Below, one piece after another: positions 4,796-59,109 of a DNA stretch of 64,000 nucleotides. The stretch spans positions 218,302,001 through 218,366,000 of the forward strand of contig OZ024743.1 of the NCBI GenBank assembly GCA_964016885.1. The letters run 5' to 3'. The stretch is from Eledone cirrhosa. Lineage: Eukaryota. A model generated the notes under the pieces. The model saw only the letters and a program-made list of their open reading frames with translations, was not told the DNA's origin and ran no database searches. How positions within the stretch are numbered: position 1 is the stretch's first letter; each line of letters opens with the position of its first letter. The translations under genes and the position numbers were made by a program.

Positions 4796-4964
4796 GCTCT
4801 TATATATATATAGGAAAAGAGTCAGGATCCCGACGGCTGAGCTCCGGCCGTCTCGACACCTAGATTCGAACTACTACCCTAAGTATTGAGTACTCTGGTG
4901 CGTTATGGTCCACCTGGTATCTTACTAACCCTCTTTGTTATATATATATATATATATATATATA

Positions 4965-5065
4965 TAGGGTGTCCCAAAAAAATGTATACACACTTTGATT
5001 ACCTGTACAGGCAATATTTATTAGAATGCTGTTGAAGTGTGTATACATTTTTGAGGGACATACTG
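4965..5065. mobile_element. Tc1/mariner-type MITE (~100 bp)
   Basis: TIR (C)AGGGTGTCCCAAAAAAATGTATACACACTT in a TA context; same family at 7085-7162 and 59110-59212. Confidence 0.8.
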
Positions 5066-6108
5066 TATATATATATATATATATACATATATATATATAT
5101 ATATATATATATATATATATATATATATATATATATATATATATATTTACATATGTATATATATATGTATATATATATATATTTATATATATATATATAT
5201 ATATATATATACATATATATATATATATTATAAAGAGTCGGGACCCGACGGCTGAGCCCTCGCCGTTTCGACAGCCAGTTCCAGATCAGAACTAGCTGTC
5301 GAAGCGCCGAGAGCTCAGCCCTCGAGCCACGACTCTATAGTCACACTCTACTGTCCCAACTATCGAATACTATGTTGAATAATGATCTAACTTGTTTAAT
5401 ACTGGTTTAATCCTGATATACATTTATAATTACAGGTGGATTCCTGAGGAGTAGCAGGGGTGACCACAGGTAAAAACGGTACTCAATAAGTTATAGATGA
5501 TAAACAGTCCAGAAATAGCCGTCGAAACGGCTTGACGTCTGCCGTCGGGGTCATACATTTTCCTATTACCCACTCTACTAACCTAAGTATTGAGTACTCT
5601 GGTGCGTTATGGTCCATCTGGTTACTTACCACAACTCCTTCGTTATATATATATGTATATATATATATATATATATATATATATATATATATATATATAT
5701 ATATATATATATATATATATATATATATATATAATTATGTATGTATATATATATATATATATATATATATATATATATATATATATATATATATATATAT
5801 ATATATGTATATATATATATATATATAGTTATGTATGTATATATATATATAATTATGTATGTATATATATATATTTAAGTATGTATGTATATATATATAT
5901 ATATAAGTATGTATGTATATATATATATATATATATATATGTATATATATATATATATATAAGTATGTATATATATATATATATATATATATATATATAT
6001 ATATATATATATATATATATAACGATATGCAAATTAGGCTGCTCAGCCGTTAATATACATAAGGAAAGTATATACTTTCAGACGTTCAATCATCTGGCAG
6101 GAAGGTAT

Positions 6109-6151
6109 ACGATGCTGACGATAGCTAATAAGCTTGAAACTAGTACATCGT
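6109..6151 (+). ncRNA. Minimal type-I hammerhead ribozyme, intact core (family I element, ~6020-6425)
   Basis: acgatg-CTGACGA-tagct aata agctt-GAAA-ctag-TA-catcgt: 6-bp stem I, stem II, 1-bp stem III with palindromic CTAG loop, cleavage after A6145. Confidence 0.9.
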
Positions 6152-7084
6152 TCCTGTGTCAGTGTCGAACAAAAAGGCGACGATGGTTGCCTGAACACTG
6201 TACGGCGTAATTCGGGCTGTTTGTTTGTTTACAAACAAACCGAACATTATAATAAATGTTCGGTAAACCCATACGTACATATATATATGTGTGCATGTAT
6301 GTATATATATATACATACTACTGTACGTCTGTATACATATATGTATGTACGTATACATACTTACTTACTTACATTTAAGTATCAGCAGTACTAAGAGTGA
6401 GAAATGAAATTTCGTTTCATTCTTTTCTCTCTCTCTCTCTTTATATATATATATATATATATATATATATATATATAAAACATGAGAAGAAAGAAGAATA
6501 CTGCGTGGTTGCACATGGGTTACATATGATAAAAATAGTCCTTCGTCAGTGATTTGCCAACCATCATTGATATTTCATCTCATTAAAAATCATATACCTC
6601 AGGTTGGTGCGAGCAATAACTAAAAAAAGCTATTGGGACAAGTAAATCGCGTAAAGCGAGTGAGACAAGTAAACAACATAGAAGGATGAAAGCAACGCAA
6701 AGATGGGAATAAGCAAGCAACATGGTTATCCGGTCAGCATAAACTGGATGGATTTCATGAGCGATCAAGATACATACCGTCCAAACGTGAGTGAGATGTG
6801 AGCAAGAAGAGAACCCACTACTAGCCAAACGGGAGGAAGTGAGAAGGGGAGAAACAGAGAGTGAGTGAGTGGAAGTGCAAGGAAGAGGTCAGTCGAGAGA
6901 AAGTGTAACTGACAGAGGGGGGCGAAAGAAGGTGAGAGCAACAGAGAGAACGGGGAAGTAGTAAGAGAGAAACAGACAAACGCAGCCGAGGTAAATATAT
7001 ATAAAAAACATGAGAAGAAAGAAGAATACTGCGTGTTTGCACATGGGTTACATATGATAAAAAAAATATATATATATATATACA

Positions 7085-7162
7085 CAGGGTGTCCCCCAAA
7101 AATGAATACACATTTTTATTAGAATGCTGTTGAAGTGTGTATACACTTTTTAGGACACCCTG
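7085..7162. mobile_element. Tc1/mariner-type MITE
   Basis: CAGGGTGTCC...GGACACCCTG followed by TA. Confidence 0.8.
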
Positions 7163-55482: not shown

Positions 55483-56045
55483 TGGACTATTGGCGAGTAA
55501 CAGAGCGATTAGATGAAGCAGTCTGTTTCAACCAAATTTTTTACTCAACCGTGAGGGAGTACATAACAAAATTATACAATATATATATATATATATATAT
55601 ATATATATATATATATATATATATATATATATATATATATATATATATATATATATATATATATATATATATATATCTTTAGGTTTCTTGGTTCACCACT
55701 GGATAGAACTGGTCATTCCGTATGGTCAATCCTGGTGTAATATTGTGAAGAGTACTCAACGCAGTGCAGTTCACCCACACCGGATTCATATGGAACCCGG
55801 TCATTGAAATGATCATAGTATAATAAACCTTTCAAGGATTTACACCAGTCCAGCCTCCTGTTATTTTATTTTATTTATATATATATATATATATATATAT
55901 ATATATATATTAGAAAGTGAGGTCTTTTTACAAAATGAAAAATAACCGAGGTGTCCTACACGAGTGAAAGTATAAAGAAAAAAAGATGAAATCGAAAATG
56001 CAACTGGAGTCTTACTTTTAAAAAAATATATATATTTATTTGGTT

Positions 56046-56084
56046 CATTTACCGGTTTCGCAGTTCTTCTGCTTTTCAAAAATA
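56046..56084 (-). ncRNA. Minimal hammerhead with U3-A8 core
   Basis: Minus strand: tattt-TTGAAAA-gcag aagaa ctgc-GAAA-ccgg-TA-aatg; stem I is weak (bulged). Confidence 0.72.
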
Positions 56085-56184
56085 GAGTTGAGAAGGAGGG
56101 TCTGTGGTTTTTCTCACATATATAGGGTATCTATCATGTGCCAGGTTTACTCGATAAATTAATTAATTAGATATATAATCAATT

Positions 56185-58284
56185 AGAGCATTATAAAATT
56201 ATAAGTGGGAAAAGCAAATAAGATAAAAAGCATTTTATATGTAGGAGGGCCCCCTTCATCTGGCAACCAATTTTTTAGACCTAGTCCTCCACTGTATATA
56301 TATATATATATATATATATATATATATATATAATGCCAATCATTGTAAGTTTGAATCTTGAATCTAACTGGCATGCAAAAACATATATATAGGAATAAGG
56401 TAAGATTTATAGTAGATTCAAATATCACAGAGAGAGAGAGAGAGAGAGAGAGAGAGAGAGAGAGAGAGAGAGAGAGAGAGAGAGAGAGAGAGAGAGAGAG
56501 AGAGAGAGAGAGAGAAATGAGGTGGAACAGAAATGAAACATGGATTACAGGTTAAAATGTAGTCTAGATAGATGAGAAACAAAACGAGGATGTAGTTTAT
56601 GGAACACCCAAATAATTTAGAAGTCGACCTTAAGTATAGCAATAACATTAAGACATGAACGACAACACGTCATTTTGTTTTGAAAATTTTGGAAGTAAGT
56701 TTATAAGTATGAATTTTCTTAAGAATTTCGTAGTTGTCTCTGTGGCCTAGCGGTATGTACTAGAGACAATGGAGATTCTGGCCTTGGGTTCAATCCTGGT
56801 CAAGAGGTACATGTAACCTTTTTCAGTTTTTATTTTACAACCAATAGAAAAAAAACTGAAAAGGTTTAACGGGTACCCTACTTCCGACCAGCATCGAACT
56901 TCAGACCAGTTCACTACCGTCTACGATTCCTCCAAGTAGGTCACCGGGGCAACTACAAAAGTACAGTGAAAATTGATAATTATAAACCTACTTTCAAAAT
57001 TAAAAAGATGTGGTGTCGTTTATAGCTTTCCTAGAGCTATTAGTAATATTTAGGGTCGTCTTGTCAATCTTCTGGCCCCTTGGTAACAAGCTTATTATTC
57101 CTATGTGTGTTTAACTGTTGAATTAATTTAATTTGATTATTTTAGCAAACAAATTATATATATATATATATGTATATATATATATATATATATATATATA
57201 TATAATCGGAGAAAGCTAATAGCGATACTCCGACCAAATTCCAACTCACTCAACAAACATTAGGAAATACCTGAGTATATTCCTAATTAAACGTTCGGCG
57301 TGCTAACTAATTGTATTGTGTGGAAAATTGGCTGTATCATTTCATATGAGATATATCAAATATATCACTTCCCAGACGACTCGTTTCATTATAAGATTTC
57401 TACAAGTTGGGTGAAATTATACCAAATTATGTAGAAGCTTGTATAAGATCAACAGATACTTATTCAATTGGGCTCTTATAATTCTTCAGTGGGTGCCCAA
57501 TAATATTAATATTGATAACCAAATCAACATCAATATTTAGCGATAATCACCATCAGTGCTTGGGGGAGCTGCTAGGTTGTTAGTCCAGCAGTTCTAAAGA
57601 AAATCTCACACTGTCCCGAAAATAGGAGGAAGGAGACTACCGCCAAAAACAATACATGCGCAGGTCATTGAACTCTGAAAAGAATTCAAGTCACGTGCTA
57701 GAACTCAATTGGATATGAAAAAATAACCATATGTGTGCATCGCTTAATGATACACATAGATATTTTCTCGGGCAAAATAACAGAATGAGATACAATAACA
57801 AACAATCAATATTCATATAAAAAATAAACAAAGAGAGTCATACCTTATATCGGGAAAGTTCATATCTGATATATATATATAATGCCAATCATTGTAAGTT
57901 TGAATCCGACATGCAAAATCATATATATATATGAATAAAGTAAGCCCAAATCATAGTAGACTCAAATATCACAGAGAGAAAGAGAGCGAGGTGGAGGGGG
58001 GGGGGGGGGGATAAATGAGGTGCAACAGAAATGAAAGATATTAGTAATATTTAGGGTCGACTTCTGGTCATTATTGAAAGTCTCTGGATTTCGCAAAATA
58101 CATAATTTTTATTGGAGATATAAGATATTTTCCCGCAAAAGTTTGATTGCACTTTTTTGTTTCCACTTATGTATTTTTCGAAAATGTTATTTATTCATTA
58201 TAAAAATTAAATGATTGCATTCTCTATGTAGGTGGGCCCCCTTCATCTTCTGGCAACCAATATTTTAGACCCAGTCCGCCACTG
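56185..58284. mobile_element. Second, partial copy of the hAT-type element (right-hand portion)
   Basis: Right-end motifs at 56294 and 58284; AATGCCAATCATTGTA internal blocks at 56332 and 57881 match 40771-41671. No left TIR seen. Confidence 0.7.
57371..57493 (-). ncRNA. Type-I hammerhead ribozyme, intact core, 79-nt expanded stem II loop
   Basis: Minus strand: ccca-CTGAAGA-attataag-(79 nt)-cttataat-GAAAC-gagtc-GTC-tggg. Confidence 0.85.
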
Positions 58285-59109
58285 ATTGAAGCTGTAGGTG
58301 ATTTGAAAAATTATTTTATGTCGGAATCCCAAACGCAGAAAATAGCTGTAAGCAGACCCTTGGTTATATGATTAGAACACACGGCTGGAATTTGAGGGCT
58401 GGGAAGTTCGATTCTCGAGAGCGACTGCTGGCCACTTTATCCCGCCCATAGTGATATTTTAACCGATTTTCTAAGCTATCATTTATAGTGATAAACTGTT
58501 CTCACAATTCTTTTCTAAGATTGGGATACCTATGTTTTCACACACACACACACATTATATATATAATATATATAATATATATATATAATATATACAATAT
58601 ATATATAATATATACATACACGGCAACTCGATTTCAAGTAATGCCATCGCTTGATACTTTTTACTCCTGCAAGGAATTTACCTATGGCCAGCAATACCAT
58701 GCATCGCAAAAAATGTCACTTATTATGTGATGTCCGTGCTTGAAGCTTTTTAACACACACACACACACACATACACATACATATATGCGTTATGGTCCAT
58801 CTGGTTCTTTACTACACTTCTTTTGTTATATATATGTATATATATATATATACATATATATATATATATATATATATGTATATATATATATATATATATA
58901 TATAACAAAAGAAGTGTGGTAAAGAACCAGATGGACCATAACGCACCAGAGTACTCAATACTTAGGGTAGTAGAGTGGGTAATAGGAAAATGTTTAACCC
59001 CGACGGCAGAACTCAAGCCGTTTCGACGGCAATTTCTGAAATAGACGTCGAAACGGCTTGAGCTCTGCCGTCGGGGTTAAACATTTTCATATATATATAT
59101 ATATATATA

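What the first reader, a model, noticed from the sequence alone, without database searches (positions are those of the whole stretch)
4812..59089. Many hammerhead-ribozyme micro-retroelements inserted in (TA)n microsatellites
Seen: many short unique islands between (TA)n runs contain a type-I hammerhead (stem I-CUGANGA-stem II-GAAA-stem III-UH-stem I'). Intact cores lie at 6109, 24894, 29512 and 57371(-). Variant or decayed cores lie at 16891, 17328, 17474, 17924(-), 20387, 26965(-), 28012(-), 39650(-), 40118, 50466(-), 50655, 51067(-) and 56046(-). 3' halves lie at 27524, 39045(-), 55806 and in family A. Stem sequences differ completely between at least a dozen families, while the core and palindromic loop 3 (CTAG, ATAT, AATT, GATC, CCGG, GCGC) are kept. 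Established: minimal HHRs with palindromic loop 3 are typical of Penelope-like pLTRs and metazoan non-LTR retrozymes and are thought to cleave as dimers. Inference: this genome carries an extremely dense (about one per 3 kb here) population of non-coding HHR elements mobilised by TA-targeting PLEs. The HHR-PLE link is known; this density and diversity in a cephalopod-like genome may not be described.
Basis: partly seen in the sequence, partly recalled or inferred. Interest (0 to 1): 0.88.

Follow-up and report, generated by a model that had tools for sequence, protein, structure and literature searches.

The report
Dense hammerheads from Penelope retroelement ends
This animal genome holds about one hammerhead ribozyme motif per 10,000 bases, mostly beside TA repeats, at the cut-short ends of Penelope-like jumping genes and in small non-coding repeats that those genes likely copy: known kinds of element at unusually high density, with self-cutting only predicted.

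Summary
The hammerheads are real. The four 'intact' cores pass a type-I descriptor (shuffles 0.05), and 18 of 20 named sites belong to genomic hammerhead families; 16891 is doubtful and 51067 unsupported. A 900-kb genome sample gave 95 complete motifs (shuffles 0-2), about 1 per 9.5 kb or roughly 320,000 genome-wide; 60 of 85 lie within 200 bp of (TA)n against 22% expected. 'One per 3 kb' counts decayed and half motifs. 'Non-coding micro-elements' is only partly right. Family A and the families at 24905, 28138, 17328 and 17924/50655 are 5'-truncated ends of coding Penelope-like elements (PLEs), three with Hydra-type endonucleases. Only the 6115/29518 family (432-nt unit) and the 57489 family (about 693 nt) are shown as tandem non-coding retrozymes. 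Insertions are two-armed with two fixed ends per family, matching the two reverse-transcription starts published for a PLE. Cleavage and circles are untested. Two families spread with non-canonical cores, which is the most open point. The scan reported this bloom before, in this genome and in others. Known kind; density is higher than the published counts I read.

The parts
6023..6425 (+). Family B retrozyme, one 5'-truncated unit in (TA)n; complete hammerhead 6109-6151, predicted cut after 6145
28960..29822 (+). Family B two-armed insertion: inverted short arm plus about 1.2 units of 432 nt; complete hammerhead 29512-29554
17457..17779 (+). Family B, decayed copy (C3 changed, at 17480)
24736..25105 (+). 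Two-armed truncated 3' end of a PLE with Hydra-type endonuclease; complete hammerhead 24894-24965 on the long arm
57205..57868 (-). Non-coding retrozyme, unit about 693 nt; hammerhead 57371-57493 with long stem II
27816..28780 (-). Truncated 3' end of a PLE with Hydra-type endonuclease; complete U3-A8 hammerhead 28010-28146
20086..20164 (+).
39444..40201 (.). Two-armed insertion with two complete U4C hammerheads (cores 39692-, 40122+); parent element unresolved
27250..27763 (.). Two-armed insertion truncated inside the hammerhead (3' halves on both arms)
20266..20453 (.). Two-armed insertion, decayed hammerhead (20387 family); parent unresolved
26880..27090 (-). Decayed relative of the 20387 family
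17250..17404 (+). Truncated PLE end with slightly decayed hammerhead (17328 family)
17840..18030 (-). Decayed PLE end (17924/50655 family)
50560..50775 (+). Decayed PLE end (17924/50655 family)
50342..50526 (-). Old family with intact core and decayed stem I
38987..39269 (.). Two-armed insertion; complete fold 39040-39128(-) with U4C plus A6U core, a sub-lineage of a family whose other copies are canonical
55677..55865 (.). Arms of a family truncated just 3' of the first core strand (55806) and its tail
55915..56090 (-). U3-A8 family, stem I partly decayed (56046)
4810..4938 (+). Family A or A-like truncated PLE end
5233..5336 (.). A-like palindromic pair of arms
5506..5643 (+). Family A long arm: 3' end of a Hydra-type PLE, truncated in loop 2 of the hammerhead
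28787..28937 (+). Family A long arm
29879..30071 (.). Family A two-armed insertion
40556..40753 (.). Family A two-armed insertion
42319..42468 (-). Family A long arm
58786..59088 (.). Family A arms
30186..32789 (+). 5'-truncated, broken coding PLE (reverse transcriptase, C-terminal GIY-YIG with CCHH) between TA runs; hammerhead-like motif with non-canonical core at 32476-32509
16812..17027 (+). Doubtful: possible decayed long-loop hammerhead (16891)

Best explanation
The islands are 5'-truncated 3' ends of several coding Penelope-like elements plus some tandem non-coding hammerhead repeats (retrozymes), all likely pasted into (TA)n by PLE proteins. Shown: complete or decayed type-I hammerheads, two fixed arm ends per family downstream of the predicted cut site, variable 5' junctions, and PLE reading frames upstream in longer copies of five families. 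Inferred: the GIY-YIG endonuclease nicks (TA)n, and the reverse transcriptase starts at two internal RNA sites 17-274 nt downstream of the hammerhead, one per strand, giving a long and a short arm joined head to head. Copying runs back across the cut site, so the template must be uncut tandem RNA or a re-joined circle; most runs stop after 60-400 nt, which litters the genome with hammerheads and half-hammerheads. For the 432- and 693-nt units, dimer-assisted cutting and circularisation are predicted by analogy and untested.
For: Motifs far above shuffles in the window and in 900 kb of genome (95 against 0-2). 60 of 85 within 200 bp of (TA)6+ against 22% of random places. Stem covariation in the 24905 superfamily: 9 of 19 pairs change on both sides, 34 cells against 11.4 shuffled and at most 7 slid. 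C3-G8 and U3-A8 both occur in family A. Family A follows a PLE endonuclease in 18 of 25 loci and recurs every 3,531 nt in a tandem with a 784-codon frame. The 24905 family: 6 of 20 loci; 28138: 2 of 9; 17328: 4 loci without a TA break; 17924/50655: 2 of 9 plus the query locus. Two fixed ends: family A +17 and +97 in 49 and 103 of 155 TA-ending arms; similar pairs in five more families. Tandem non-coding units. Two internal starts, both-strand extension and use of uncut RNA are published for a lizard PLE (PMC11167929).
Against: No RNA data and no cleavage assay. No PLE protein was shown to act on families B or 57489; the link rests on shared target and end pattern. About seven window families have no identified parent (0 of 9 loci with an upstream PLE frame for the 20387, 39692 and 39045 families). 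In six of the 15 references only one end was recovered. The covariation rows were picked by the descriptor, which favours pairing. Monomer folds do not form stem III, and 40122 misfolds. In the published lizard element the start site is not homologous to the target, whereas here the template continues with TA at the ends I read.
Confidence: 0.8

Rival explanations
1. All islands are independent non-coding micro-retroelements (retrozymes).
For: Families B and 57489 are tandem non-coding units; three more such families with periods 467, 482 and 556 nt occur in the random sample; most copies of every family are short.
Against: Five window families continue upstream into PLE frames; family A is the terminal repeat of a 3,531-nt coding unit.
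Confidence: 0.08
2. Same elements and same enzyme, but the hammerheads are passengers: copying uses uncut RNA, and cutting or circles play no part in spread.
For: A sub-lineage with U4C plus A6U makes up 28 of the first 100 listed copies of its family (hand count). The window's PLE family carries a non-canonical core in 2,488 of 2,808 matches and has long open frames. Hammerhead mutants did not impair insertion in vitro in the lizard PLE.
Against: Cores are kept and stems covary across many unrelated families, which points to selection on the fold; more-than-unit copies of family B fit circles; circles are shown for coral, mussel and axolotl retrozymes (PMC7229834).
Confidence: 0.35
3. The inverted arms are miniature DNA transposons with terminal inverted repeats inserted at TA.
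For: Palindromic shape and TA flanks.
Against: Arms are unequal with fixed outer ends and variable inner junctions, and are linked to reverse-transcriptase frames.
Confidence: 0.03
4. The motifs are chance matches in AT-rich repeat DNA.
For: The core is short; one site (51067) has no relatives; a satellite gave false U3-A8 hits.
Against: 95 against 0-2 in shuffles and 1 of the reversed sample; 4,359 exact copies of one core against 0 for the reversed pattern.
Confidence: 0.01

Closest known systems
Hammerheads of Penelope-like elements (Cervera and de la Pena 2014, PMC4209133; parts 1-2 of 4 read)
   Same: Minimal type-I motifs with palindromic loop 3, an extra base after A9, U3-A8 variants, many families per genome, mostly single or in opposite-strand pairs from truncated PLEs.
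   Different: Counts there are thousands per genome (about 9,000 in Xenopus); here the estimate is about 320,000, with a different descriptor.
Hydra clade of PLEs, including Hydra-1_Obim of Octopus bimaculoides (Craig et al. 2021, PMC8557442; passages, section 11 and supplement rows)
   Same: The family-A parent has the RW motif, DKT, CxCx5C linker, no CCHH, CxxC and CxH around the conserved E and N, a hammerhead, and (TA)n targets; inverted truncated arms and a one-sided tail.
   Different: Unit 3.5 kb against under 3 kb; tail about 80 nt against 30-40; U3-A8 core; very high copy number. No tree was built and no sequence comparison with Hydra-1_Obim was made.
Metazoan non-LTR retrozymes (Cervera and de la Pena 2020, PMC7229834, passages and section 15; Li et al. 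2026, 10.64898/2026.07.22.740005, part 1 of 5 and passages)
   Same: Families B and 57489: non-coding, low-GC tandem units with a type-I hammerhead per unit, beside PLEs.
   Different: Mostly 1-2 units in two-armed insertions within (TA)n rather than long arrays; the 693-nt unit exceeds the usual 150-450; circles not shown. Axolotl has 126,247 motifs in a far larger genome (size recalled, about 32 Gb).
Poseidon element of Anolis carolinensis (Frangieh et al. 2024, PMC11167929; parts 1-2 of 4 read)
   Same: Two reverse-transcription starts downstream of the hammerhead that bound the tail; AT-rich target; copying across the cut site.
   Different: Different clade; there the start is not homologous to the target, here the template continues with TA at the ends read.

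Membership tests
Type-I hammerhead ribozyme | Conserved core in the order stem I, core, stem II, core, stem III, cut site, stem I' | tested here: met
   4 exact-core hits in the window and 95 in 900 kb against shuffles of 0.05 and 0-2
Type-I hammerhead ribozyme | Compensatory changes in stems | tested here: met
   9 of 19 pairs change on both sides in 19 rows of the 24905 superfamily; rows were descriptor-picked
Type-I hammerhead ribozyme | Canonical core in the motifs at 32476-32509 and 39040-39128 | tested here: not met
   Positions 4 and 6 differ family-wide or in a sub-lineage
Type-I hammerhead ribozyme | Self-cleavage as monomer or dimer | not testable with these tools
   needs an assay
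Penelope-like element with C-terminal endonuclease | Single frame with reverse transcriptase and GIY-YIG | tested here: met
   Pfam RVT_1 9.3e-8 and GIY-YIG 1.8e-4 (just under its cut-off) for L091; no Pfam hit for the family-A parent L239, whose motifs were read by eye
Penelope-like element with C-terminal endonuclease | Tandem or partial-tandem units with a hammerhead in the pseudo-LTR | tested here: met
   L239-L242, period 3,531-3,572 nt
Penelope-like element with C-terminal endonuclease | Inverted 5'-truncated arm and a one-sided tail | tested here: met
Hydra clade | RW motif, DKT, CxCx5C linker, no CCHH, CxxC and CxH, (TA)n target | tested here: met
   family-A parent read against section 11 of PMC8557442; not met by the window's own PLE, which has DKG and CCHH
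Hydra clade | Placement in a reverse-transcriptase tree | not tested
Non-LTR retrozyme | Short non-coding tandem unit with a hammerhead in each unit (families B, 57489) | tested here: met
   period 432-434; 669-705 in 6 of 9 loci, no PLE frame in 9
Non-LTR retrozyme | Non-coding unit (families A, 24905, 28138, 17328, 17924/50655) | tested here: not met
   PLE frames upstream in longer copies
Non-LTR retrozyme | Non-coding tandem unit (20387, 39692, 39045, 55806, 56046, 50466, 20094 families) | tested here: inconclusive
   neither tandem nor PLE frame established within 1.5 kb
Non-LTR retrozyme | Expressed as linear and circular RNA | not testable with these tools
   no raw RNA reads were offered

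The most novel reading that the evidence does not exclude
This genome is a natural mutagenesis library of some 320,000 hammerheads in which whole lineages spread with cores thought to be dead. An autonomous PLE family is fixed for a core changed at positions 4 and 6 (2,488 of 2,808 matches), and another family has a sub-lineage with U4C plus A6U. Either these are active, protein-assisted core variants that I did not find described, or they show in vivo that PLE mobility needs no cutting. A five-letter word shared by the tails of 10 of 15 families (window 25036-25040) would be the common signal read by the PLE proteins.
Probability: 0.25. Interest if true: 0.65.

Novelty: new member of a known kind. 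Interest (0 to 1): 0.42.

Why it matters
PLE hammerheads, retrozymes, TA targeting and the two-start tail are published. What this adds is scale and a test bed. The estimate of about one complete motif per 9.5 kb is higher than the published counts I read (descriptors differ), and a 2026 repeat annotation of Octopus vulgaris does not mention ribozymes in its main text. Coding and non-coding families side by side, with fixed start points and natural core variants, make two open questions testable: which enzyme moves retrozymes, and whether PLEs need their ribozyme.

Tried and rejected
Rfam scan: the 150 best rows shown are microsatellite noise with no hammerhead family; 203 weaker rows were not shown. 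The repeat finder was swamped by microsatellites. I first read family A as lacking its own 5' half, because canonical-core patterns found only 45 and 74 places; this was wrong, since the family mostly uses U3-A8 (7,013 matches). I first took the family-A parent for Neptune; its motifs fit Hydra. Pfam found nothing in the three broken frames of the window PLE. No RNA holder was listed, and laying four runs of contigs showed only that they hold family B; neither bears on expression. One search counted arm ends with TA left in the queries and was discarded. One search timed out and was rerun; one search stopped after two of ten loci. The 3.87-kb tandem near the 50466 family (L211) gave rearranged Neptune-like frames and no hammerhead hit, so it does not link that family to a PLE. 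U3-A8 hits include a false satellite and were left out of the density estimate. Lunse et al. 2017 is not held. Descriptor-independent conservation counts and dimer folding energies were not computed, so the dimer claim rests on the literature.
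Full report
Setting. The window is 35.5% GC with 123 (TA)6+ runs. 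It lies on contig C4 of a 3.0-Gb genome. A cephalopod source is plausible from the repeat landscape and earlier notes, but no call tested it.

Noticed in passing
window 52890-54942 (-): LINE reverse-transcriptase frames; Pfam RVT_1 1.7e-32 for 52893-54266; RTE-like by recalled resemblance.
   Followed up: partly
window 6478-7065: Element between TA runs with a 58-bp terminal direct repeat (period 528 nt); 35 hits in 13 loci and no type-I hammerhead found. A candidate for the rearranged hammerheads that earlier notes report in this genome.
   Followed up: no
window 32970-33529 and 35212-35771: 560-bp direct repeat at 99.8% identity, 2.2 kb apart; recent duplication or terminal repeats.
   Followed up: no
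window 7965-8151, 16626-16780, 37508-37700, 51238-51398, 51712-51809: Dispersed family with a tRNA-like head, SINE-like by eye.
   Followed up: no
window 4967-5065, 7083-7162, 59110-59212: About 100-bp element with short inverted ends between TA runs, MITE-like.
   Followed up: no
window 40772-41700, 56333-57062, 57882-58284: Composite repeat with an imperfect inverted pair of tRNA-like segments at 41026-41414.
   Followed up: no
window 25036-25040 and matching places in other tails: The same five-letter word lies downstream of the cut site in 10 of 15 family references, often inside a short palindrome; possible protein-binding or pairing signal.
   Followed up: partly
L118, L038, L111, L054: Further tandem hammerhead repeats with periods 556 (nine intact units), 467 and 482 nt.
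   Followed up: partly
L211 (G000:C2:359518500-359528400): 3.87-kb tandem array of rearranged Neptune-like PLE frames on both strands.
   Followed up: no
L187 566-5616 (-): Long LINE-like frames (endonuclease and reverse transcriptase by eye) upstream of a family-A end.
   Followed up: no
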